From positions 7,006 through 71,005 of the IMG/VR virus record IMGVR_UViG_3300030450_002194: a stretch of 64,000 nucleotides of DNA; one strand, given 5' to 3'. The translations under genes and the position numbers were made by a program. Numbering within the stretch: position 1 is the first letter of the stretch; the number at the start of each line of letters is the position of its first letter. This DNA comes from a virus. Below the pieces are notes generated by a model, which saw only the letters and a program-made list of their open reading frames with translations, was not told the origin of the DNA and ran no database searches. Below are positions 65 to 62,024 of the stretch, one piece after another.

Positions 65-166
65 TTACGGTCTCCTTATAGTAGTTTCACTAAACGCTTT
101 TAATATAAAGTGTACACAAATTATGTAAAGTCCTATTACTGGAAGTGTACATAATAAATCCGTCAT
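65..166 (-). CDS. 33 aa hydrophobic peptide
   Basis: ATGA overlap with polB stop; MTDLLCTLPVIGLYIICVHFILKAF...; hand-translated. Confidence 0.4.
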   Translation of the reverse strand: MTDLLCTLPVIGLYIICVHFILKAFSETTIRRP

Positions 167-1848
167 ATTTCCATCACCTTAAACGCTGCTTCTCTAATGG
201 CTTCTCTAGCACTAGCAGTAATACTAGCGGCTAAATCTATATCTGCCCAACCAAATCCCTGGTAGGCAACAATTCCGTAAAAAGAAGCCATCAATCTTTT
301 TACGGCTAACTGGTTATTGTTCCACTTTATGTAATCTTCCTTAGATTCTGCGGCCTTCATCTTTTTCTTATAATCATTCCGCAATTCTTTCAATTCTAAA
401 ACCGCTCTAGGTAAAAGACCTAACTCATCAGTTTTATAATAAAGCATTTCTTTCTCATCTTCATCAGTGAAATCCCTAGGTGTTAGAATATTAACACCAA
501 AAACAGTTGGTTCAATTGATTTAGTTTCCCATGAGATGTTTCGTGCAATCATCATACTCGGATAAAGTCCAGCAAAGTCAAAGGCGGCTACACCTAGATG
601 TAAACCATTTGTTCCTTCTGTCATAGGGTCATAAATCATTGCACCTTGATAATCAACCTTATCTCCATGTTCACCAGTAGGTGCTTTCCAAGTTGCATTA
701 CGCATAAAGTATATCCCACCCATATTACTTGCATAGAAGCAAGCATCGAATGGGGCCTTTAGTAATCTTTGTAAAGCAATTACTGCTTCAGATGTAAAGT
801 TTTCTTCATCAATTCTAACAAGAAGCATAACGTCAACGGCTGCATAATCGAGATAATGCTTAGTGTCTTCTAACCATCCTCTAGAGAAAAACTCATTCTT
901 ATCTGGAAACTTCTCAGATACTAGTTTCTTCTCACCTAACACTATATCAGCAACATAATCTAATGCTAATGACGGTAAGGTTCCTCTTTGTGCGTCATTC
1001 CACTGGCGTTCAAAAGCCAAGTCTAGATTTAATACTAGCCTTCCTCTAACTGGTTGTTCTATAGGGCTGTAATTGTTCACGTTTTTGGAAAGTTTGATAC
1101 CTTCATCGAAATAAACCCCCTTCACATCGTTATATGGCGATAATTTTCTGGGGTCAAGCCCATTAGCATGGAGTCTTTCGATTAATTTTGGCAGGTCGAA
1201 TTTAGAACCGAACCAAGAAATCATCATATCTGGGTCTTCTTTTCTAAGTCGCCCTACAAAAGTCTCTAACATTTCTCTCTCCGTTAGGAAACCTTCACCA
1301 ATAAGATTTCTTTTAGGTGGAGTATCTCTAGGAAGCCAATATAAAACTCTATTTCTTTTAGTATAGTTATCATAGAAAACCATACAAGTAATAGCCCCAT
1401 CGTGTTCTCCCCCCTGTTGCCATTCTAAATCCCAATACCATTTCCTAAGATTATACTCTGGCATCTGCTTAATGTTATCAACAGCATATCTATAATGATA
1501 GGCTACATCTGCTTCAAATGTTTCCTTCCATTCTTTCCTTAATGTTCTCATATATCCAGGTTTAGGAGGATACCAAGTTACTTTCTTTAAGGGGGTTCCA
1601 TCTAAAGATTTAGAACCATCTATCTCATAGGAAAGAGTAATGTCTACTCTACTCCCAAAATCTCTAAATGTGATTCTATCAATATTTCTATCTGTTGTTT
1701 TAATATAGAAATATGGAGGAGCATCATTATAGGATACTGTTTCCTCTTGTCTATTATCATTTTCATCTCGCCATCTAAGGGCTATCATATTATTTTTATC
1801 TATCGTACTAATTATCATATTCTCACTCATTTCTAATATAGGGTGCAA
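163..1848 (-). CDS. polB: family B DNA polymerase, N-terminal part (exonuclease plus motifs A and B); likely start ~1818
   Basis: ExoI WDLE, ExoII FGSKFDLP, ExoIII YAAVDV, motif A FDFAGLYPS, motif B QLAVKRLMASFYG; ends before YGDTDS. Confidence 0.93.
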   Translation of the reverse strand: MHPILEMSENMIISTIDKNNMIALRWRDENDNRQEETVSYNDAPPYFYIKTTDRNIDRITFRDFGSRVDITLSYEIDGSKSLDGTPLKKVTWYPPKPGYMRTLRKEWKETFEADVAYHYRYAVDNIKQMPEYNLRKWYWDLEWQQGGEHDGAITCMVFYDNYTKRNRVLYWLPRDTPPKRNLIGEGFLTEREMLETFVGRLRKEDPDMMISWFGSKFDLPKLIERLHANGLDPRKLSPYNDVKGVYFDEGIKLSKNVNNYSPIEQPVRGRLVLNLDLAFERQWNDAQRGTLPSLALDYVADIVLGEKKLVSEKFPDKNEFFSRGWLEDTKHYLDYAAVDVMLLVRIDEENFTSEAVIALQRLLKAPFDACFYASNMGGIYFMRNATWKAPTGEHGDKVDYQGAMIYDPMTEGTNGLHLGVAAFDFAGLYPSMMIARNISWETKSIEPTVFGVNILTPRDFTDEDEKEMLYYKTDELGLLPRAVLELKELRNDYKKKMKAAESKEDYIKWNNNQLAVKRLMASFYGIVAYQGFGWADIDLAASITASAREAIREAAFKVMEI

Positions 1849-2599
1849 TCACCATTTTTCTATTCGGCCCTGTTATTACTATTGGTTTATTATCCCCACT
1901 CCAAAGAGCCATTACATTTTTCACACAAAATTTACCAATTGGTGCAGAAAATTCTACAGTTAAGTCTTCTCTAGAAGGAGTACCAACTAAGGCAATCGTT
2001 CTATCTACAAACTCTGTTCTATGAAAGTTAGAAGATGAGATAGTTATGTCACTTTGTCCTGCAATATATTCTATCTTAAAGGATGCTGTTCCAACCAAGT
2101 TACAAAACTTAATTGCATTCGCTAATTCTTCACCGTTTACCATAAGCATACAAGGTAGTTGTGTTTTACCAAAAACTACTGGTTCACCAGTCTTAATACT
2201 AAGACCCCTAATCATAGAAATTAGGCCCATGTTATTGTGTTCTACTAATACTGGTACTTTAATAGAAGTCCTACCCATATTGAAAGCAATATTAGATTCC
2301 CCAATACTAATCTTTAAACTTCCTGCTTTGAGATTTTTAAGGTACTTCATAATCTTTTCAATATCAAATATAAACATATATTCTTTTTGTGGTTCTCCCT
2401 CTATATCTATTGTCACACTAATAGCACTTTTATCATTACCATTAAGTAACTCTAATCTAGTATCTTTAATAATGCCAACAGCAGTATTGCTGATAACACC
2501 AACTTTAGATACAGTCGAGGACTTATATTTGCCTCTCAGCCAAATTGCCTCAACCGCATCTCTAAATTTATCTAAATCACAGTTTATTATTTTACTCAT
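1823..2599 (-). CDS. putative PCNA-like sliding clamp
   Basis: ~258 aa, two-lobed alpha/beta pattern, C-terminal IAP, next to polB and near RFC genes. Confidence 0.6.
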   Translation of the reverse strand: MSKIINCDLDKFRDAVEAIWLRGKYKSSTVSKVGVISNTAVGIIKDTRLELLNGNDKSAISVTIDIEGEPQKEYMFIFDIEKIMKYLKNLKAGSLKISIGESNIAFNMGRTSIKVPVLVEHNNMGLISMIRGLSIKTGEPVVFGKTQLPCMLMVNGEELANAIKFCNLVGTASFKIEYIAGQSDITISSSNFHRTEFVDRTIALVGTPSREDLTVEFSAPIGKFCVKNVMALWSGDNKPIVITGPNRKMVIAPYIRNE

Positions 2600-3492
2600 A
2601 GTTTTCCCTCTCGTAGTTCTGGAATCCCAAACCATTTATTATCACCGTTGGTGGTGAAAATAGTCCATTCCTGTCCTACAAGGGAGGGATTCGTTTTACT
2701 AGCCGTTAATTTGGCTACATAGTTTGTGGTCTTTCCCTTCATTACCTTTTCAATATGAATCATCTGCACGAATCTAGCAGGTGTTGATTTATGCCAATCA
2801 GGTACTTCTCCTATAGGAGTAGGTACATTGATATTATCATACACAGGTTTCATATGTGTAATCAAAAACCTATCACATTCTAAACTACATACTAAGTCTA
2901 GTAATCTGTTATAGATTCTATTCCTAATCTTCCAATCAAGTGTAGATACTCTTACTGAATCAGTAGCATGAACGATACTACCTTCCTTAGTTTGTTGCTT
3001 TACTAGCAACTCTCTAAGCACATCGCTTGAGCCTTCAAATGCCTTATCTACTCCATCAAGGCAGAAGGATTTAACATCTCCTGTCTTAATCAAGTCCTTA
3101 GCATATTGGCAAAAACTATTTGCATTATTAAAGGTCTCTTCCCAATCAGTAGAACCATCTGTTCTAACTTCTATTGGGCTAAAGATAACTATGTTATCAT
3201 CTCTATCCCAAGCAGAATCCCACGTTGGTTCAGCCCCATTATCAAAATCCAAAATAAGAATCTTCTTACCTTCTTTTACTTCTTCTTCAGTTCTAGAATC
3301 TAAAACCAATCCGGTCTTACCCACCTTTGGGTTACCCGTTATTGAGCATAGATTATAACTTCTATCCCTATTTAGTCTGGCCTGTATTTGTGCCAATATC
3401 TTTTTCTTTTGTTCTGCGAAAAAGTCTGGGTTATTAACTCCATCATCACTTCCCGCATTTCCTTTCTTATCTTTAGTCCAATCCATATTCAT
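2596..3492 (-). CDS. RecA-fold ATPase, Sak4/AAA_24-like recombinase
   Basis: Walker A GNPKVGKT, LDFDNG, Walker B CLDGVD, ITHMK. Confidence 0.75.
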   Translation of the reverse strand: MNMDWTKDKKGNAGSDDGVNNPDFFAEQKKKILAQIQARLNRDRSYNLCSITGNPKVGKTGLVLDSRTEEEVKEGKKILILDFDNGAEPTWDSAWDRDDNIVIFSPIEVRTDGSTDWEETFNNANSFCQYAKDLIKTGDVKSFCLDGVDKAFEGSSDVLRELLVKQQTKEGSIVHATDSVRVSTLDWKIRNRIYNRLLDLVCSLECDRFLITHMKPVYDNINVPTPIGEVPDWHKSTPARFVQMIHIEKVMKGKTTNYVAKLTASKTNPSLVGQEWTIFTTNGDNKWFGIPELREGKL

Positions 3493-9098: not shown

Positions 9099-10622
9099 TT
9101 ACATCAACTCCTTCACCCTTTGGAGGGTATCGGCTTCAGCAGCATACTTGTCGTGCCGTATCCGCATTGAGCGAGGGAACCTCAAACCAATGTTTCCGTC
9201 AGCATCATTAGAGATTAAATCACTTGTTACTTGCAATACAATTCTAGGCACAAAGAAATACTTATCTCCTTCATACTTTTCTATTCCTTTCCTAAGTTCG
9301 GAAGTAAGATACTGTAAATCATCATCTGAAAAACCAGTACCAACCTTTCCTACTTCAACATAATCACTACCATCCTTTACTGATATTCCAAACGTACCAA
9401 ACCATCCACTTCTTTTACCTTTGCCGTATTGAGCAGAAGTAATAACTACATCTAACTCAATTCGCGGTGGCTTATACTTCAACCATCCTTTGCTTCTCTT
9501 ACCTGGTTCATAAGCCATGTCTGCATCTTTAATCATAATACCTTCAAAGCCCCAATCAATAGCCAGATTATATGCTGCTTCAATAGTAGTATCCTCAAAC
9601 CTAGTTGCAATATAAGGAGATTCAACGTTCTCTTCAAGTTTAATAATTCTGTCTGCCAAGGGTTCCTCTAGTAAAGACCTACCTTGGATTGATAGAATAT
9701 CAAACACTGCTAATTGAATTGGGCATCGTTCTATTGCCTTCGCCTTATCTTTCATATGAACTCTCTTTGCTAATAACTTATGTTCAGCAGGAGAACCATC
9801 TCTATTGATAGGATAGATTTCAGCATCAACGATACAATCAGAACACAATACATGTCCGGCTAGTATCTCGTCAACCAAATCTGCAAATTGATTAGTAACA
9901 AGGTTGCCCTTTCTATTAAAAATCATAACACTTTCTTTTTGAGGTAAGTAATGAATTTGGTATCTATTACCATCATACTTAACATCAATGATGTGATTGC
10001 TTGGCTTTTCCTTTCCTTTCCTTGCCTTTGCTAACATTGGTGTCACCCACAACCCATGTGTTAATTCAACGCTAGGAATAAACCCTTGTTCTAATTCAGC
10101 ACAAATATCTGTGGCAGTATTAAAATGATAATACTTCTTAATATCAGAAATAGTATGCCCATAATGTTTAGCCAGTGCCTTTAGCGGTATGTTATTGTTC
10201 ACACCATTTCTAGGCTTACGCAACCAATAACGTACAAACCACTTCTTTTCTCTAGCACTCATCTTATTAAGGTTCTCAGCAAATAGAGTATATGATGCAC
10301 TTTCAATCCTTGAGCAATCCATATTCAATAGTTGCCAAAACCCCTGAATAGTAATATCTGAATCAGTTTCATTACCTAAATCAATTTCAGCCATTGCTTC
10401 CCCAAAATCACCCCATGTATAAACTGAGGTTTTCACTTCGTCTTCAAATAAACCAAGTGCATTGGCTATCCAAGTCATCGCTCTAGATTCTGCAATATTA
10501 TTTACTGCATATTCTATAGATAATATATTTATCACTAGATGCTTAGAATCAAAAGAAGATAAAGATTCAGATATAGTAGTTACTTTATCAGTAGGCCTTT
10601 GGTCTTCTAATAGTTCACACAT
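9099..10622 (-). CDS. lig: ATP-dependent DNA ligase
   Basis: motif I KYDGNR, VDAEI, FDIL, EGIMIKD, WLKYK, GKVGTGFSD, LRFPR. Confidence 0.96.
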   Translation of the reverse strand: MCELLEDQRPTDKVTTISESLSSFDSKHLVINILSIEYAVNNIAESRAMTWIANALGLFEDEVKTSVYTWGDFGEAMAEIDLGNETDSDITIQGFWQLLNMDCSRIESASYTLFAENLNKMSAREKKWFVRYWLRKPRNGVNNNIPLKALAKHYGHTISDIKKYYHFNTATDICAELEQGFIPSVELTHGLWVTPMLAKARKGKEKPSNHIIDVKYDGNRYQIHYLPQKESVMIFNRKGNLVTNQFADLVDEILAGHVLCSDCIVDAEIYPINRDGSPAEHKLLAKRVHMKDKAKAIERCPIQLAVFDILSIQGRSLLEEPLADRIIKLEENVESPYIATRFEDTTIEAAYNLAIDWGFEGIMIKDADMAYEPGKRSKGWLKYKPPRIELDVVITSAQYGKGKRSGWFGTFGISVKDGSDYVEVGKVGTGFSDDDLQYLTSELRKGIEKYEGDKYFFVPRIVLQVTSDLISNDADGNIGLRFPRSMRIRHDKYAAEADTLQRVKELM

Positions 10623-13851: not shown

Positions 13852-14784
13852 TCACCTTATTCCTGCACAAAACGATTCTACATCCAACAGTAAGAGTTTA
13901 TCTTTATCCACTCCTAACATTGGAAATAGTTTCTTTGAAGTTATTCTTTGCGCTACTGCTGTGCATTGGCAAGCATCGCAAATTGATTGTTGAGTATGTT
14001 CAACCTTACCTATTTTTCTCAATAGAGTTGTCATCCATAAGGCAGAAGCCATATGACTCTTAGAGAAATGTATGTCATGTTTTGTTACAACTTCATTAAC
14101 ATAACTTACAACTGTTCTAGCATCTTGGATAAATACTCTTTCGGATTTTAAGTCCGAACCGATGCGTTCCACCCAAGCATCTAATGGCATGTTCTGTAGA
14201 ATATTTGATTTACCTAAGTATCTAGCAAAGTGCCTAGCACATTTAGATACCTTATGAGAATCTTCATTATTCTTAGCAGCCAATTCCGATATTGTTATTG
14301 GTATGCCACTCTCTCTTAAACACAATACAACTAAGGCACATGCTCTTAGTGGTATGGGTATTCCTCTAAACTTGTGGTCAAGATATAACTTTCTATAATA
14401 GTCATGTACTCTATCTCTAAGGGGATTGTTAGGAAGGAATGGTGATAATACCATATTACATTCTAACAAGCCCTTTTGCATAGAAACGTTCTTCTTATCT
14501 CTATACCTAGTTTGTGTTCTCTTTAATTGAGAAGAAAGTCTTTTATTAGAAACATTATCATCCCCTATCCAAGAACCCATAGTATTAGCAGTATCTGCTT
14601 CTGTTAGGTAAGAGTTTCTAGCCCCATCATAATCCTCAGTTAAAACTCGTTGTTGCTTATCTTCAAAAATATGTGTTACTTGAACATAACCACAACCCTT
14701 ACAGATGGTTTCACCCATCCTATCATCTACATAAAATTCTATTCCACTACATTCATCACATTTCATATTATCAACTTCTGCCAA
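13852..14784 (-). CDS. tfb: transcription initiation factor TFIIB (TFB) homolog
   Basis: Zn ribbon CDEC...GETICKGCG, two cyclin-like repeats, TQQSICDAC. Confidence 0.85.
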   Translation of the reverse strand: MAEVDNMKCDECSGIEFYVDDRMGETICKGCGYVQVTHIFEDKQQRVLTEDYDGARNSYLTEADTANTMGSWIGDDNVSNKRLSSQLKRTQTRYRDKKNVSMQKGLLECNMVLSPFLPNNPLRDRVHDYYRKLYLDHKFRGIPIPLRACALVVLCLRESGIPITISELAAKNNEDSHKVSKCARHFARYLGKSNILQNMPLDAWVERIGSDLKSERVFIQDARTVVSYVNEVVTKHDIHFSKSHMASALWMTTLLRKIGKVEHTQQSICDACQCTAVAQRITSKKLFPMLGVDKDKLLLLDVESFCAGIR

Positions 14785-28946: not shown

Positions 28947-29313
28947 GTCCTTGACGGAGGACACCGGAGTGGCTGAATATCACCGTTGTTAGGGTGAAAG
29001 GCACACATCTAGGGGTCATAGTGGCCCATCGAGCCGACTAAAGAAAACGGTAGGCAGTACAAACGCCCTTAGCGGGGTTAGATGTGGTATGTGCGGGTAA
29101 AGCAATATAACACTGTTATTGAAACTGACACCCATTGCACATTGAGAGAAACTAGAAATAGGCTTCTCTTCTCCACCCTTGAGCCAGTTTTGCACATTTC
29201 TGGCACTTAACCAAAAAATGTCGCATCTCAATAGTGAGTAAGACAACGACTTGTAACAATATAGTTAGCGCAAGTGGAAATCGTTGCATCATTATTGAGA
29301 TGAGGTCTTTTTT
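28947..29313 (+). ncRNA. putative structured non-coding RNA (~365 nt)
   Basis: follows promoter copy 3, no sense ORF in track, many helices, final hairpin plus T6. Confidence 0.6.
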
Positions 29314-31652
29314 ACAAAGTTATTACCATATGGGTTTAAGTTCTACAGATATAACTTAAGATAGCAATTAGGCGGACGAAGTCGCGCCGAAAGCAAAAGT
29401 AATCGTAGGATGCATTAAGCATCAGCGTAGCGTAGTAATTAGTTTTGTTGGAGGGAACGTAATTCCTATCTTAAGTTCTACACAGAACAATTACCCTCAA
29501 TTTGGGGTCATGTTCTAATTACTGAGAACATGTTACCATATGGATATGACTAACGATTAGTGTCCAGGAAAGCGTTAATCACATTAAGTGATAGCAGGAG
29601 TCTTAGCCTTATGTTTAGGGATGATATAAACTACGTTTTGATAACTACGTTTATTACTACCATATGGTTGCTGAAAGAGATAACGGCGAAATTCATCAAA
29701 ACAAATGAATTGAGCCGTAGTCTCTGTAACAGCAGTGGAGTACCTACGAAACGTACCCCAATTCTATGCTGTCTTATGTTATACACTCCTTCTGGTCTTA
29801 TATGGAACCACACTATATACCTTCAGTCGTTATGCTTTGCATGGTGCATAATGCACCTGTTACCACTCCTTCTAATTATAGGTGGAACCTATGACCATAT
29901 GGATGAGAAAGGTTTCAGTCGGGATACGCTGAAGCATGGCGAGATGTTATTGCATTAAGCAATAGCGATACGCGTGTATGGAGGCATGTCTGGTGCGTAT
30001 CTTGCTGGGCCAATCTTGCATCCTGATAGGATGTTTTGGTTAATCACTTTTCCTTACTTTACGTGATTAACGTCACACCATATGGTCGGTGAGGTTGAGG
30101 TGTCGAAGACGGTGGTGCTTGCACCTTGGCATCATCGAAGACATACGAAGTAATAATGTCTGAGATATGCCAAATAGTCGTAGGCCCCTCATAATGCACC
30201 CAGACCTTATGAGAGGAGTTGATTTATACGTGTAGTCTTTAACTTTGTTAAAGCCAACTTTAACTTAATGTTTTAAATAAATAAACTTAACCTCATATGG
30301 TAGTGCAAGAGCGATACAGCAAACAACAACTGTATCAAACTTGATAGGAGATATGAAAACACACTCTTGCAACTATCCTCATCGGCTCACCACTTAGCGG
30401 TAGCATATGGGTGTAGCCCTGACAGGGTGCATAATAACTTGCAAATCTCCGCTGGAACTTCGTAACATTGTTTAACAAGAGGCTTAATGCCTCTATACTT
30501 TACGAAGATTCCAGTCTCCGTTTGCAAGTAATTATCATTTCATGCCCATATGGAAAGGTGGGGTATAAAGTCTTCAGCGCAGCATGTAGGCATTAAGCAG
30601 GGTGCTAAGCACCCAATGCTGCGATTTATACCTTACAATCCCCAAGCATTAGGGTTGTATTGTCTTTGTGTAGAGTATACGCTCTTACGAACTAGTGTTG
30701 TCTTATCTCCTGGAGACAACACTCAGTTCTCCACTATCGTAGCATATACTCTACTGCTGAGTATACCAACCATATGGATAGTAAGGCTTACGGTAGGCTT
30801 ACCGTAGCGAGTCGATAGTGTACTTACATTAAGTAAGAGCAGAGGTAATAAACGTAGTTTATGCCAGGATGCGTTTGCTATCGGGCGAGACGGTGGTAAG
30901 ACTAGTGGGGCCATTAAATCCTGATGGGGTGTTTCACACCATATGGTATGAGTTACGGTTTACCAAGGTTTACAGGGTTAAGTAAGAGTACGCTACAGTG
31001 GGGAACAAGTATAGATGCATTAAGCATCGAACAAAGTGGAATGCAGTTCCCGGATATGTAGCGTAGTCTTAGTTAAGACTGTAAACTGGTGTGGCCGATA
31101 ATACGCAATACCAGAACATAGGGTAGTTATCACTACGTTCATTGCTTAAAGGAAGGAGTTAAACTGTAGAACTCCGATGCTCTGGCTTAACGCCTGTCCC
31201 GCTGAATCTAGCGGGAACCGCATGTTTATCTTCATTCTACAGAGCCTCCTCCTTTAACCGTCACTCCGTTTCACTACCATATGGCTTTGCCTTCGATTTT
31301 TTTTCTTATTGTTTAATCATTCTTTATCCAATGTTGGCATAAGATTTTGTTCTTCCAAAGCCTAATTTGATATACTACCCGTAGGGGTGTCCATATAGAG
31401 AAGCGTCAGGTGTGCTAACTCTAGTAATTAAACATAAATAAATTCGCGGTGCTGTGATATGAACAAAGGATACAATGAAGTATTAACCTTCGTTTAACCA
31501 CAGCCCATTGATAGGTAAATAAAAAGCATAGGCTTATCCTGGGAATGCACAAAGTTTAGGTTAAAAAAAAACGCAAGTGCCACATAAATTACAGCCCAAA
31601 TTTCAAAAAATAAAGGTCTAAAAAATTCCACCACACAAAAGAGGTAAAAAGC

Positions 31653-32072: not shown

Positions 32073-32765
32073 ATGCATTGGGCCAATCATCTAAAGAAGC
32101 AAAAGAAGAACTGGGCAGTTGATGGCAGGGATTATTCTAAAATAAAAAAAGACCCAAGACCCAAACCAGCCCATGATTTTAGAGTAGCAAGGTTTCCCAG
32201 GCAGTATTTACGTGATGAAGACGGAGAATGGTTTTATAGAGATAAAGACGGACCCCCAGCCTATCCTGAAAGGTTGTCTTGTGATGCTATGTTAATGTTA
32301 GGTTATTTTTGGTTTTTAAAGCATGTAAAACGGACCTCTAGAAAAAAGGTAATTTCTGGTAAAAAGTTTACATTTGCTGATTTAGGATTTCCACCAATGC
32401 GTGTGTTTAAAAATTCTCCTGTAATTTTTGCTTATTTGAGAACACCACCAAGAGTACCGGATGATTTTTCTAAGTTAAATAATGCTGTACGTTTTTCGGA
32501 TGTTACTAATTTGATGAAAGCACTAAAATCAATTTTAGATGCTGGTTATTTACAGCGTGATATTCATATGAAAAATATGGTAGTGAGTATGTTATCATGG
32601 TACAACAAGACTGGATGTGATTTTGGTGAGTTAATGGATGATTTAGATATAATATCTACAGATATGCGTGAAGTGCATCTAAAACAAAAATTACGTGATA
32701 AAGCGCAATTTAACACGAATCAGAATAAACGAGTAAAGATAAATGGCCAATGGAAGATGATATAA
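32073..32765 (+). CDS. WxxLK-tagged hypothetical protein
   Basis: MHWANHLKK. Confidence 0.7.
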   Translation: MHWANHLKKQKKNWAVDGRDYSKIKKDPRPKPAHDFRVARFPRQYLRDEDGEWFYRDKDGPPAYPERLSCDAMLMLGYFWFLKHVKRTSRKKVISGKKFTFADLGFPPMRVFKNSPVIFAYLRTPPRVPDDFSKLNNAVRFSDVTNLMKALKSILDAGYLQRDIHMKNMVVSMLSWYNKTGCDFGELMDDLDIISTDMREVHLKQKLRDKAQFNTNQNKRVKINGQWKMI

Positions 32766-59504: not shown

Positions 59505-62024
59505 ATGCCCCTATCTGGTGTCTTTGATAAGAAGAAACCTTCGTTAGCGAAGCGTGTCTTAAACTTCTATGAAGACGTTAGATATAATTATTTATCGGCA
59601 AGAGAAGACCCTAAAGGGTTTAGTAAAGAATGGAAAAAGTCTATCGAAAAAATACGTGATGACTTTGATGGGTTAAATGATTTTTCATCAGAAATGAAGA
59701 AATATTTAACTGAAAAAAATGTATTTTCTAAGGAAGCCCTTGACCCAACATCGCATCAAGCAAGAGATTTATACAAAGAAATCAAAAATCTACGGTTTAA
59801 TTCCGAAGAATTAAATGACCCGTTTGCTAAACAAATGGGGGATAAAGTCATACAAAATCTAGTTGAGAAGCCCTCTATATATGCTATGTTTATACACTAT
59901 GCTTTACGGTCACACGCGCATAGTATTAAAGAAGAATCTTGGGAAAAGCACAGCCGGATGGCTGATAATATTACCGAGGGTGCTATGGGGTTAGACCTCG
60001 CAGTAGATGATATTCCAACATACATCATAGAACACTATGGTGATGACAAAGACACATCAAAAGTTAAACCTAAATTTAAACCAGCATTAGAATTACTAAA
60101 AGAAGTATATCTAGAAGACAATACTCTTGAAAACTGGGAGACTTTATTAGAATTAGATTTGAAAAAGAGTGAAGAGGAAAAGGCAAAGGTAGATTTTATT
60201 GTACCAAATAAACCAATGTATAGGATATTTGAAATAAACGATATAAAAGAACTCAAAGGTTTTAGTGGTGAGTGGGTTGTTCAAGAAAAATATGATGGTA
60301 TAAGGATTCAACTCCATAAAATGGGTAGTAATATTAAAGTTTATACATATAATGAGAAGGATATTACTTCTAAGTGTAAGAAGATAGTAGAAAGATTAAA
60401 GAATAAACAATTTGGTGATTTAATTTTAGACGCTGAGTTAATTCTATATGATAAGGATGAGCCTTTACATCGTGCAGATACTATTGCCCACCTATTTAAA
60501 GATAAATATAAGGATGCAGAATTAAAGGCAAGAGTTTTTGATATTATGTATCATGAGGATAAAAACATTGCAGACGATACTTTAAGAGAAAGGATTAATA
60601 TTTTATTCTATCAATTCTCTCAAAATTCATCAGATGAATTAGGGTTTCCAAATAAAAAGAATACTAGAATTGCTGACTCATTAGAAGAAGTTAAAAAGTA
60701 TGGTAAAGATATAATGGAATCTAGAACTGCGGAAGGAGTAGTAATAAAAGATATTGAGTCTACATATTATATTGGCACGAAAAAGAATCCTAAGTGGATT
60801 AAGTGGAAGAAGTTTGTAGACTTAGATGTTATTGTTCTTGAAAAGAAAACAACAAAATCTAACTTAAATTCGTATACAGTAGGCATAGGCCCGCTAACAG
60901 GGGAAGAATCAAGAGAGCATGATGGAGTAGAATTAAACGGTAAAACCTATCTAAAGGTTGGCAAAGCATTAAACACTAAAGAAAGTGTTGAAGTGGGGTC
61001 TATTGTTAGAGTGAAGGTTGATGAGGTAAAAAGAAAAGGAACTGGATATAGTTTATTTTCTGCTAAAGTAATAGAAATACCAGAAGTAGAAGCACCAGAA
61101 AAACTAATTACATTAGAATTATTAGCAAAAGATAGTAGAAAATCATTGGCTTATGATGTTCAAGAAGCACTCCAAAAATATATTATTACAGATGGTATTC
61201 ATGGTGAAGCAGAAATAATATTAAAGAGTAATTATGAAGGTTTTACTGTTTATGGATTTGATGGAGATTCTTTAATGGAAAAGAATGCTTTAGTTGATAT
61301 GGACTCTTGGACTGACCAAATAACAGAAATAAATAAAACAAAAAGTTCTGAGGCCAGAGGCGCAATTAAACAATATCTAAAGGATAATGACCCAAAGGAG
61401 GAAGGAATGCCCATTCAAGATATATTAGAGTTTGTGCTTCAACATCCAGAAGTTAAACAAAACGCAGATACATTATGGGATGGTGAACCCAGAAAATTAA
61501 AAAATTGGATGAATGACCAAGATGAGTTTATACCAATTAGCGGTAATAAGTTCACATTTAACTCAAACCATATTTCTAAGAATCCTATCAAAAAGGAAGA
61601 AACGACCACAGGTACATTTAAATTATTATCTGGGAAAGATGGTAACATTAGTTTAGTTTTTAATGTCAATGATAAAAGACAGGCTTGGAATATTGATATA
61701 GAAGATACAGAAGATATTTTCAATTTGTTTGGTAAAGCCGGTAAATTCCCAGCAGAAATTGCTGAGAGCATAAAAGGGGAGAAGGTCTTAGATAAGGGGA
61801 AAATTGAACTCGGTGTTCAAAAGCATGGTTATCACGAATATAGGATAGATGGCGACAAGTTTGATACCAGACTTCACTTTAGAGTCGTACCTGTGAACGA
61901 ACAAGATACTTGGTTAGTTTGGACAGGATACAAGCAAGAGATGTTAGATAAGAAGGAAAACAAAGGAATATGGGATTTATCTGAGGATAGGTTTAAAAAA
62001 TTAACCATGCAAATTCCTGAATAA
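59505..62024 (+). CDS. second ATP-dependent DNA ligase with N- and C-terminal extensions
   Basis: QEKYDGIRIQLH, LDAEL, VFDIM, EGVVIKD, WIKWKK, OB domain. Confidence 0.88.
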   Translation: MPLSGVFDKKKPSLAKRVLNFYEDVRYNYLSAREDPKGFSKEWKKSIEKIRDDFDGLNDFSSEMKKYLTEKNVFSKEALDPTSHQARDLYKEIKNLRFNSEELNDPFAKQMGDKVIQNLVEKPSIYAMFIHYALRSHAHSIKEESWEKHSRMADNITEGAMGLDLAVDDIPTYIIEHYGDDKDTSKVKPKFKPALELLKEVYLEDNTLENWETLLELDLKKSEEEKAKVDFIVPNKPMYRIFEINDIKELKGFSGEWVVQEKYDGIRIQLHKMGSNIKVYTYNEKDITSKCKKIVERLKNKQFGDLILDAELILYDKDEPLHRADTIAHLFKDKYKDAELKARVFDIMYHEDKNIADDTLRERINILFYQFSQNSSDELGFPNKKNTRIADSLEEVKKYGKDIMESRTAEGVVIKDIESTYYIGTKKNPKWIKWKKFVDLDVIVLEKKTTKSNLNSYTVGIGPLTGEESREHDGVELNGKTYLKVGKALNTKESVEVGSIVRVKVDEVKRKGTGYSLFSAKVIEIPEVEAPEKLITLELLAKDSRKSLAYDVQEALQKYIITDGIHGEAEIILKSNYEGFTVYGFDGDSLMEKNALVDMDSWTDQITEINKTKSSEARGAIKQYLKDNDPKEEGMPIQDILEFVLQHPEVKQNADTLWDGEPRKLKNWMNDQDEFIPISGNKFTFNSNHISKNPIKKEETTTGTFKLLSGKDGNISLVFNVNDKRQAWNIDIEDTEDIFNLFGKAGKFPAEIAESIKGEKVLDKGKIELGVQKHGYHEYRIDGDKFDTRLHFRVVPVNEQDTWLVWTGYKQEMLDKKENKGIWDLSEDRFKKLTMQIPE

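What the first reader, a model, noticed from the sequence alone, without database searches (positions are those of the whole stretch)
28947..29313. Promoter-driven ~365 nt structured RNA without an ORF
The promoter is almost identical to that of the 27274 gene, but what follows is a run of helices: GTCCT/AGGAC, CACATCTAG...TTAGATGTG enclosing GGGTCA/TGGCCC, GCCG/CGGT and GGC/GCC, then GTGC-GGGT...ACCC-GCAC, GAGAGAA/TTCTCTT, GCCAG/CTGGC and CATCTCAATAGTGA...TCATTATTGAGATG, ending in T6. G-U pairs favour the plus strand. I do not recognise RNase P, SRP or ribozyme cores.
Basis: partly seen in the sequence, partly recalled or inferred. Interest (0 to 1): 0.8.

Follow-up and report, generated by a model that had tools for sequence, protein, structure and literature searches.

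The report
Stand-alone manA-type RNA gene, archaeal virus
The flagged stretch is a real gene for a folded, non-coding RNA of about 367 bases in a marine virus that probably infects archaea; its front two thirds are a divergent relative of the known phage "manA" RNA, here made as an RNA of its own and not as the leader of a protein gene.

Summary
28947-29313 (+) folds better than 100 of 100 shuffles (z -3.68). Fourteen relatives from viral and marine metagenome contigs keep the fold: 34 of 53 pairs show compensatory changes. No ORF is conserved.

It is not a new class. 28947-29180 matches Rfam manA (RF01745) over the whole model, at 41.9 bits and E 1.8e-9, below the gathering score of 55.2. All 15 members score 36.8-51.4 bits, so routine annotation misses them. 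A model built from this subfamily finds the canonical manA of cyanophage P-SSM2 in return (E 1.6e-11).

What differs from known manA:
- The virus looks like a magrovirus (TFIIB homolog, RFC, PolB, a second ligase in the structural block).
- The RNA sits in its own cassette, bounded by CCATATGG, behind a BRE/TATA-like promoter shared with two protein cassettes.
- No gene follows it.
- It carries a conserved 3' hairpin domain that also occurs alone in a relative.

One metatranscriptome contig lies inside the RNA.

Best reading: a free-standing manA-class RNA. A 2026 preprint reports that canonical manA RNAs self-assemble, but that is not tested here.

The scan has found stand-alone manA-like RNAs before on other DNA, including a related archaeal-virus cassette.

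The parts
28885..28892 (.). Left cassette boundary, palindrome CCATATGG
   Evidence: 23 exact copies in the window, all within 24804-31284, against 0.98 expected. It stands about 54 nt before the RNA start in the relatives too.
28900..28905 (+). ACTTTG box, the left half of the cassette's extended inverted ends (the partner CAAAGT is at 29315-29320)
   Evidence: Present at the same distance from the palindrome in the 13 distinct upstream regions printed (11 RNA cassettes plus protein cassettes 1 and 2), with variants GCTTTG (4 RNA cassettes and cassette 2).
28913..28946 (+). Promoter-like word. ACC plus the TATA-like box TTAAGTA lies at 28916-28925 (-31 to -22), followed by an A/T-rich stretch and a pyrimidine just before the G start.
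   Evidence: Repeat family D5 has 3 copies, two of them in front of protein genes. The position of the ACC+TATA-like box is kept in relatives whose remaining promoter sequence differs. It is not sigma-70-like. That it is an archaeal BRE/TATA promoter is inferred.
28947..29180 (+). manA-like core domain: 12 helices, including the 5' hairpin with a GACG loop at 28947-28962 and the long-range closing helix GGAG/CUCC
   Evidence: cmscan RF01745, model 1-192 of 192, 41.9 bits, E 1.8e-9. Subfamily model R1 covers 28946-29178. Covariation.
29181..29222 (+). Linker: hairpin GCCAG/CUGGC (29183-29187 with 29200-29204) and the conserved A-run CCAAAAAA (29211-29218)
   Evidence: Fold. The A-run is present in all 9 relatives aligned.
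29223..29307 (+). 3' domain: a long hairpin with a conserved internal loop (GUAAGAC at 29238-29244 opposite GCAUC at 29286-29290)
   Evidence: Inverted repeat I19 and folds. TAAGAC and GCATC are invariant in 10 of 10 sequences, and the inner stem covaries (3 of 4 pairs; 4 of 5). The same module stands alone behind the same promoter architecture in L014.
29308..29313 (+). T6 run, the likely transcript end
   Evidence: Read in the sequence. Kept in 5 of 5 group-A sequences and absent in group B, L031 and L033. Its termination function is inferred.
29315..29333 (.). Right cassette end: CAAAGT (29315-29320) and CCATATGG (29326-29333)
   Evidence: Repeat family D8. The same ending occurs in the relatives.

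Best explanation
The stretch is a self-contained gene for a non-coding RNA of about 367 nt in a marine tailed virus of archaea (magrovirus-like).

Transcription most likely starts at G28947, about 22 nt after a TATA-like box, and ends at the T6 run 29308-29313.

The first 234 nt fold into a divergent version of the manA RNA architecture: a 5' hairpin with a GACG loop; a long-range closing helix; the CUGAAUA junction; an inner stem carrying three hairpins; and two further stem-loops, one capped by a GAAA tetraloop.

The last 130 nt are a second, separately conserved hairpin module.

The RNA works as a free RNA, not as the leader of a gene. The most likely mode of action, by homology only, is that of canonical manA RNAs, which a 2026 preprint reports to assemble into closed homo-oligomers through loop-loop and tetraloop contacts. 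In this subfamily the invariant apical loops (UAGCG twice, AAAGAAAAC, GAAA) would be the contact or binding surfaces, and the 3' hairpin a tethered second module.

Shown here: fold, conservation, family relationship, absence of a coding frame, and cassette context.

Inferred: start and end of the transcript, the archaeal host, action in trans, and self-assembly.
For: 1. Fold: z -3.68, 0 of 100 shuffles as good.

2. Family: a full-length match to RF01745, E 1.8e-9. The same holds in 14 of 14 relatives that carry the subfamily's conserved 21-mer (36.8-51.4 bits). Model R1, built from 13 subfamily sequences, finds in 137,318 bases only the window's own copy and the canonical manA of P-SSM2 (40 bits, E 1.6e-11, full length). 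That site scores 181.6 bits with Rfam's model.

3. Covariation on 13 distinct sequences: 98.4% of cells paired against 82.3% in shuffles (0 of 500 reach it); 34 of 53 pairs have changes on both sides; slid controls give 38-52% paired.

4. No conserved ORF on either strand. Minus-strand ORFs change frame and length between close relatives.

5. Own transcription unit. The promoter-like word is shared with two protein cassettes. The ACC+TATA-like box sits at -32 to -22 in all 11 distinct RNA-cassette upstream regions printed, although the rest differs.

6. The virus encodes a TFIIB homolog (PDB match E 1.1e-4 over residues 18-193; Pfam zinc ribbon E 2.8e-5, below its cut-off).

7. 14 of 15 members carry the 3' hairpin domain in place of a gene (in L024 the contig ends inside the domain).

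8. An RNA-library contig (run X3, 169 nt, 29036-29204, no differences) lies inside the RNA.

9. Canonical manA RNAs form pentamer-based decamers and a 60-mer cage (bioRxiv 10.64898/2026.07.01.735769; passages and section 8 read).
Against: - The Rfam score is below the family's gathering threshold in all 15 members.
- The loops that are complementary in the canonical P-SSM2 RNA (GUGGUG and ACCA, read by eye) are replaced by two identical, non-complementary UAGCG-type loops. A search for conserved loop-loop complementarity of 4 or more columns in the core found none. The specific contacts reported for manA assemblies therefore cannot simply be transferred.
- One member (L030) has the core directly in front of a 63-aa ORF with an AAGGTGAT Shine-Dalgarno-like word. 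That is the classical cis-regulatory layout.
- Expression evidence is thin. It consists of contigs, not reads, so there is no strand, start or end. Only 1 of 4 laid runs has a contig on the RNA, and DNA carry-over in RNA libraries cannot be excluded.
- The T6 run is missing in group B, L031 and L033.
- The host is inferred from gene content only.
Confidence: 0.6

Rival explanations
1. It is a cis-acting riboswitch-like leader, the classical reading of manA. The core senses a metabolite and controls what lies downstream, either termination at the T6 run or expression of a neighbouring cassette.
For: Weinberg et al. 2010 place manA RNAs in 5' UTRs and rate them riboswitch candidates (PMC2864571, passages). 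In P-SSM2 the canonical copy sits 16 nt before a purL-annotated gene. In relative L030 the core is followed at once by a 63-aa ORF, and its AAGGTGAT word can pair with the AUCACC tail of the closing helix (read by eye; ORF).
Against: In the window no plausible gene follows. The next units are short hairpin cassettes, and the 132-aa ORF at 29560-29958 runs across two cassette boundaries. 14 of 15 members carry a conserved structured 3' domain in place of a gene, and that domain exists on its own in L014, so it is not merely an expression platform. About 40 nt and a separate hairpin lie between the core and the 3' hairpin, with no evident alternative pairing. No ligand for manA was found in the papers reached.
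Confidence: 0.2
2. It is a decaying remnant: a former leader-plus-gene cassette (like L030) that lost its gene and has no present function.
For: L030 shows that a gene-bearing form exists. Cassettes in this array are shuffled and inverted between relatives.
Against: Compensatory changes keep 98.4% of cells paired across lineages that differ at about a quarter of positions. Apical loops are invariant (9 of 9 columns of AAAGAAAAC). The 3' domain is conserved and covaries. A matching contig is present in an RNA library.
Confidence: 0.05
3. The hairpins act at the DNA level, as recombination or replication structures of the CCATATGG cassette system, and not as RNA.
For: The cassette ends are inverted repeats, and cassettes change orientation between relatives. 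The array lies between the two divergent gene blocks, where GC skew changes sign.
Against: Many conserved pairs are G-U on the plus strand, which would be A-C mismatches on the other strand. The plus strand folds better. The core is homologous to a known RNA family.
Confidence: 0.04
4. It encodes a small protein: the 42-aa plus-strand ORF at 29082-29210 or the 46-aa minus-strand ORF at 29152-29292.
For: Both ORFs exist in the window. The minus-strand ORF keeps an open frame with a hydrophobic stretch in three group-A sequences.
Against: The plus-strand ORF is found in the window's sequence only. The minus-strand ORFs have different lengths and C-termini in the window, L028 and L035, and are absent or unrelated in L033, L031 and group B. 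Within group B the frame shifts between L010, L023 and L025/L034. No PHROG family matches the 42-aa product.
Confidence: 0.02

Closest known systems
manA RNA motif (Rfam RF01745; Weinberg et al. 2010, PMC2864571)
   Same: The overall architecture is the same and aligns over the whole model: the 5' hairpin with a GACG loop, the long-range closing helix, the UG-CUGAAUA junction, a hairpin followed by UAAGG/AAAGG, an inner stem with three hairpins, the GGUA junction and the 3' stem-loops. Reciprocal detection of the P-SSM2 copy. Viral and marine origin.
   Different: - Its score is below the gathering threshold (41.9 against 55.2; canonical copies reach 181.6 bits and 100.6 bits in PMC9964418).
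- Peripheral loops are replaced: two UAGCG-type loops and an invariant 9-nt A-rich loop.
- It lies in a magrovirus-like archaeal virus behind a TATA-type promoter, not in a T4-like cyanophage or a gamma-proteobacterium behind a sigma-70 promoter.
- No gene follows.
- It has an extra conserved 3' hairpin domain.
- It lies in a palindrome-bounded cassette.
Self-assembling natural RNAs: manA cages and decamers (bioRxiv 10.64898/2026.07.01.735769). By recall only, ROOL, GOLLD, OLE and raiA.
   Same: A phage- or virus-borne, ornate, ORF-less RNA with strongly conserved apical loops and a conserved GAAA tetraloop. These are the kinds of elements that mediate the reported assemblies.
   Different: Assembly is not tested here. 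The canonical complementary loop pair is not kept. The supplementary figures that define loops L3-L9 could not be seen, so the helices could not be matched one to one. The mention of ROOL, GOLLD, OLE and raiA is recalled and comes from no call.
Promoter/stem-loop bounded mobile cassettes of T4-type phages (PeSL; recalled, from no call)
   Same: Short modules, each with its own promoter and end structure, shuffled between related viral genomes in a hyperplastic region.
   Different: Here the boundaries are CCATATGG palindromes with extended inverted ends, the promoters look archaeal, cassettes occur in both orientations, and many cassettes carry RNA hairpins and not ORFs.

Membership tests
manA RNA (RF01745) | Score at or above Rfam's gathering threshold (55.2 bits) | tested here: not met
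   41.9 bits in the window. 0 of 15 subfamily members reach it (36.8-51.4 bits). The default scan is silent.
manA RNA (RF01745) | Statistically significant alignment over the whole model | tested here: met
   Model positions 1-192 of 192. E 2.3e-8 in a 7.2-kb search, 1.8e-9 in 551 nt and 5.4e-11 per genome.
manA RNA (RF01745) | Reciprocal detection: a model of the candidate group finds a bona fide member | tested here: met
   R1 hits L038 1500-1698 (P-SSM2, the site that Rfam's model scores at 181.6 bits) at 40 bits, E 1.6e-11, positions 1-237 of 237. It is the only hit in 137,318 bases besides the window's own copy. Only one canonical member was tested.
manA RNA (RF01745) | 5' hairpin with a GACG loop, the closing long-range helix, and the conserved junction words (UG.CUGAAUA, UAAGG, GGUA) | tested here: met
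   Alignment. The closing helix covaries (3 of 4 pairs with changes on both sides) and the 5' hairpin covaries in 5 of 6 pairs.
manA RNA (RF01745) | Peripheral loop sequences of the three inner hairpins (consensus GUGGUG, a short hairpin, uaACCAg) | tested here: not met
   The helices are present but the loops read AUAGUG/UUAGCG, AAAGAAAAC and UUAGCG.
manA RNA (RF01745) | Position in the 5' UTR of a protein gene (Weinberg 2010) | tested here: not met
   No gene follows in the window. Only 1 of 15 members (L030) has an ORF directly behind the core.
manA RNA (RF01745) | Formation of closed homo-oligomers (2026 preprint) | not testable with these tools
   It needs purified RNA and native sizing or cryo-EM. 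No conserved loop-loop complementarity was found in silico.
Riboswitch | A ligand-binding aptamer coupled to an expression platform that controls a downstream gene | tested here: inconclusive
   The ligand is unknown and not testable here. No downstream gene and no alternative pairing were seen in the window. A possible SD-sequestering pairing occurs in L030 only (by eye).
Archaeal BRE/TATA promoter | An A/T-rich box centred about 26 nt before a purine start that follows a pyrimidine, used by a TBP/TFB system | tested here: inconclusive
   The box lies at -28 to -22, preceded by ACC, in all 13 distinct upstream regions printed. A viral TFIIB homolog is present. There is no sigma-70 match. The start is not mapped. 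One contig of the sister cassette ends 2 nt from its predicted start with adapter letters beyond it, which is only a weak hint because contigs cannot show starts.
Magroviruses (viruses of Marine Group II archaea) | An archaeal-type replication set plus an HK97-type morphogenetic block, with a second ATP-dependent ligase inside the structural block (Philosof 2017) | tested here: met
   - PolB, RFC-like ATPase, ligase at 9099-10622 (-), ligase domain at 59505-62024 (+) between portal and prohead protease, and terminase.
- The PolB records listed first (best 15 by coverage times identity) are all haloarchaeal tailed viruses.
- Description of the group from PMC5434244, passages.
- MCM, primase and PCNA were not looked for. 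No phylogeny was made.

The most novel reading that the evidence does not exclude
The virus makes a two-module RNA in which a manA-type core self-assembles into a closed multimer inside the archaeal host and thereby displays or encloses many copies of the tethered 3' hairpin module. This would be an RNA-only particle used by a virus, carried on a shuffling cassette system that trades structured-RNA genes between magroviruses. It would give the in-vitro manA cages a natural, trans-acting biological setting, and it would show that the fold works across bacterial and archaeal hosts.
Probability: 0.2. Interest if true: 0.85.

Novelty: new variant of a known kind. Interest (0 to 1): 0.6.

Why it matters
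manA is an orphan RNA. It was proposed in 2010 as a riboswitch candidate of cyanophages, and a 2026 preprint reports that it builds RNA-only decamers and a 60-mer cage in vitro, with no biological role known.

A subfamily that Rfam's threshold misses turns up in viruses of a different host domain, behind its own promoter and without a gene to regulate. This argues that the fold acts as a free RNA and that its function does not depend on bacterial expression machinery.

It also supplies natural sequence variation for testing which surfaces matter: invariant loops, covarying stems, and forms with the 3' module, without the core, or with an ORF.

In the papers reached I found no report of manA-type RNAs in archaeal viruses. 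Of one search's seven listed papers I saw only the listing, and its term matched by word start.

Tried and rejected
- A default Rfam scan of the window found only the tRNA.
- blastn of 25500-31400 against named phage records found no match.
- A protein-guided search for relatives with the 230-aa product of 32073-32765 found none.
- Pfam and PHROG searches found no family for the 179-aa, 66-aa, 200-aa, 132-aa and 42-aa products.
- The triple-palindrome pattern returned 20 loci. 17 of them are regular tandem repeats, or hold only 3-9 copies in unrelated contexts. Only L002, L010 and L014 are arrays like this one.
- RF01745 was sought in 18 of those 20 records (two are not held). Only G008 matched at E <= 0.01.
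- R1 found no further copy in the window, L002, L014 or four unrelated loci.
- The search for conserved loop-loop complementarity in the core printed nothing at 4 or more columns.
- A loose regular expression for the 3' motif gave chance hits in coding regions as well as the true ones. Only the L014 hit was followed.
- MAFFT alignments of the 3' domain recover only the inner stem. The outer stem is misaligned by indels and was judged by eye.

Sequencing runs:
- None of the 24 listed runs holds half of the words of the 2301-nt query. Shares were 0.06-0.23, and the query was dominated by the 179-aa gene.
- In the four runs laid, no contig covers 27870-29035 or 29205-29400. Absence of cover is no finding.
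- The X3 contig has only 24 letters beyond 29180, so it does not count as bridging core and 3' domain.

Supplements are closed. Weinberg's Additional files (gene contexts) and the preprint's supplementary figures (loop numbering) could bear on the 5'-UTR rule and on matching loops, and were not seen.

Full report
WHAT IS THERE

The window is 64 kb of a 71,005-bp viral contig. The contig has two divergent gene blocks: minus-strand genes up to about 24.2 kb and plus-strand genes from 31.65 kb. GC skew changes sign between them.

Between the blocks, 24804-31284 holds 23 exact CCATATGG palindromes. About one is expected by chance, and none occurs elsewhere in the window. Several one-base variants are also present. 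The palindromes cut the region into roughly 27 short units.

The flagged stretch is one such unit, 28885-29333. It is more stable than all 100 shuffles (z -3.68), and it is better than the minus strand.

The 35-nt word that ends at 28947 recurs at 27199-27233 and 27890-27924, in front of a 179-aa and a 66-aa ORF (family D5). All three units end with TTTACAAAGTT-like words followed by the palindrome (family D8).

WHAT KIND OF RNA

The default Rfam scan reports only a tRNA-Leu. With an E-value threshold, 28947-29180 aligns to the entire manA model RF01745, positions 1-192:
- score 41.9 bits, below the gathering score of 55.2;
- E 2.3e-8 for a 7.2-kb search and 1.8e-9 for 551 nt.

The alignment begins exactly at the base where the promoter-like word ends. 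It matches the model's conserved words:
- the GACG loop of the 5' hairpin;
- GGAGUG-CUGAAUA;
- AAGG;
- GGUA;
- the CUCC-ACC tail.

RELATIVES

One used the triple palindrome. The other used a 21-22-nt word from an invariant loop region.

Together they brought in:
- two viral contigs with the RNA (G008 = L010/L022, and L023);
- twelve marine metagenome contigs (L024-L035).

All 14 carry a full-length manA match at 36.8-51.4 bits, and none reaches the gathering score.

I aligned 13 of the 15 sequences. L026 was dropped because its core is identical to the window's, and L027 because it is identical to L010.

Covariation results:
- RNAalifold predicts 53 pairs, 34 with compensatory changes.
- On that structure 98.4% of 687 cells pair, against 82.3% in column shuffles (0 of 500 reach the observed value).
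- When partners are slid by 1-3 columns, 38-52% pair.

Caveat on these counts: seven of the 13 rows are close to each other (group B) and four to each other (group A). The number of independent lineages is therefore about five or six, and cell counts overstate independent events.

A covariance model built from this alignment (R1) was run over 137,318 bases. Besides the window's own copy it found a single hit: the canonical manA RNA of Prochlorococcus phage P-SSM2, at 40 bits and E 1.6e-11, over its full length. Rfam's own model scores that site at 181.6 bits.

The relationship is therefore reciprocal. This is a divergent subfamily of manA, not a new class.

NOT CODING

The 42-aa plus-strand ORF exists only in the window's own sequence. 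Minus-strand ORFs over the 3' hairpin differ in length, frame and C-terminus even between close relatives.

TWO DOMAINS

Behind the core, 14 of 15 members carry the following elements:
- a short variable hairpin;
- a conserved CCAAAAAA-like run;
- a long hairpin whose internal loop is invariant (TAAGAC on the 5' side and GCATC on the 3' side, in 10 of 10 aligned sequences);
- an inner stem that covaries (3 of 4 pairs; 4 of 5).

In L024 the contig ends inside this domain.

In the window and its four closest relatives a T6 run follows. In group B, L031 and L033 it does not.

In L014, part of a 96-kb relative rated complete, a cassette with the same palindrome, ACTTTG box and TATA-like box encodes this 3' module alone, without a manA core. 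The two domains are therefore separable modules.

The single exception among the 15 is L030. There the core is followed at once by a 63-aa ORF behind an AAGGTGAT word. This is the layout that led to the original cis-regulatory reading of manA.

PROMOTER AND HOST

Anchored on the first base of the 5' hairpin, the upstream regions of all distinct members and of the two protein cassettes share the same layout:
- the palindrome at about -62;
- an ACTTTG/GCTTTG box at about -45;
- ACC plus an A/T-rich 7-8-mer at -32 to -22;
- a pyrimidine just before the first base, which is G in every RNA cassette.

The sequence between -20 and -1 differs between groups. No sigma-70-like site lies there.

Gene content points to an archaeal host:
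- a TFIIB homolog;
- an RFC-like clamp loader;
- family-B polymerase, whose 15 listed records (ranked by coverage times identity) are all haloarchaeal tailed viruses;
- terminase, portal and prohead protease;
- two ATP-dependent ligases, one of them inside the structural block.

Philosof et al. 2017 describe that last trait as notable for magrovirus groups A and B (PMC5434244, passages).

I therefore read the promoter as an archaeal BRE/TATA type and the virus as magrovirus-like. Both are inferences.

EXPRESSION

The single run search used a 2301-nt stretch. It returned 24 runs, 20 of them on record as RNA, all holding only small shares of the stretch.

Four runs from four studies were laid, all as contigs:
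- All four hold contigs on the 179-aa gene.
- In X1 a 571-nt contig covers 27235-27779, with adapter letters directly beyond 27235. That is 2 nt from the start predicted for that cassette.
- One run (X3) holds a 169-nt contig identical to 29036-29204, inside the RNA.

Contigs show neither strand nor ends, and RNA libraries can hold DNA. This is a hint of expression, not proof.

MECHANISM

Weinberg et al. 2010 found manA RNAs in marine metagenomes, T4-like cyanophages and two gamma-proteobacteria. They placed them in 5' UTRs and rated them riboswitch candidates (PMC2864571, passages). The S-CREM1 paper repeats this (PMC9964418, passages). Rfam 14 corrected the family's structure (PMC7779021, passages).

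A July 2026 preprint reports by cryo-EM that manA RNAs form pentamer-based decamers, octamers and a 60-subunit cage. The assemblies are held by kissing loops and a GNRA loop-receptor contact (10.64898/2026.07.01.735769, passages and section 8).

In the window there is nothing to regulate in cis. The RNA has its own promoter, and the conservation pattern is that of an RNA with surfaces to present: invariant loops on covarying stems.

I therefore favour a free-standing RNA that acts through its fold, with multimerisation as the most likely mode by homology.

Against a simple transfer of that mode:
- The canonical complementary loops are not kept.
- I found no conserved loop-loop complementarity.

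The riboswitch reading remains the main rival because of L030.

CONTEXT OF CASSETTES

G008 also has homologs of the 200-aa, 179-aa and 66-aa cassettes, but in other relative orientations. The palindrome-bounded units therefore behave as independent, invertible modules.

EARLIER NOTES OF THE SCAN

After reaching the manA reading, I found that the scan already holds many notes on manA-like stand-alone RNAs in phages: 394 notes hold the search words.

One follow-up concerns a related archaeal-virus cassette on other DNA (e1-6074727, which shares 12 of 120 short words with this stretch). Another concerns an expanded manA-type RNA in a magrovirus (e1-5915231).

They agree with this report. They are not independent evidence, and I did not test them.

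VERDICT

The RNA is real, non-coding and conserved.

It is a new variant of a known orphan family:
- it scores below Rfam's threshold;
- it occurs in an archaeal virus;
- it stands alone;
- it has two domains;
- it is borne on a cassette.

Its function is unknown. The best-supported mechanism is action as a free, possibly self-assembling RNA.

Noticed in passing
window 24804-31284; relatives L002, L010/L022, L014: An array of about 27 units bounded by CCATATGG (23 exact copies against about 1 expected). Three other viral contigs carry similar arrays with 11-16 palindromes. Homologous cassettes stand in different relative orientations in G008.
   Followed up: partly
L014 2815-3025 (-): A cassette with the same palindrome, ACTTTG box and TATA-like box that encodes only the 3' hairpin module (TAAGAC/GCATC internal loop), without a manA core. 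The two domains of the window's RNA are therefore separable.
   Followed up: partly
L030 8545-9009 (-): The only member in which the manA-like core is followed at once by an ORF (63 aa). Its AAGGTGAT word can pair with the AUCACC tail of the closing helix (by eye), which would be a possible translational switch.
   Followed up: partly
window 27274-27813 (+): A 179-aa protein with no Pfam or PHROG family, behind the same promoter word. Contigs of it are present in 4 of 4 metatranscriptome runs laid (word depth 52.5 in X1). By eye, the 5' leader and 3' trailer look complementary.
   Followed up: partly
window 13852-14784 (-); 59505-62024 (+); 163-2635 (-): A virus-encoded TFIIB/TFB homolog. A second ATP-dependent ligase domain inside the structural block. 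The family-B polymerase may be split over two overlapping ORFs (561 aa and 270 aa). These traits fit magrovirus groups A/B as described by Philosof 2017.
   Followed up: partly
window 26214-26471, 26632-26876, 28405-28592 (minus strand): Three cassettes share a fixed leader after the palindrome, followed by small ORFs. Two are hydrophobic peptides of about 62-64 aa and one is an acidic 43-aa peptide. These were read by eye.
   Followed up: no
window 25763-31193: Many units contain a hairpin capped by GC-ATTAA-GC or its reverse complement. No Rfam family matches them at E up to 5.
   Followed up: no
window 27924-28011 (+): The leader of the 66-aa ORF starts, at the predicted transcript start, with a 10-bp long-range helix (27924-27933 with 28002-28011). 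This was seen by eye and not folded.
   Followed up: no
window 23011-23097 (-): tRNA-Leu (anticodon TAA), the only tRNA in the window. L030 and L034 also carry a tRNA near their arrays.
   Followed up: no
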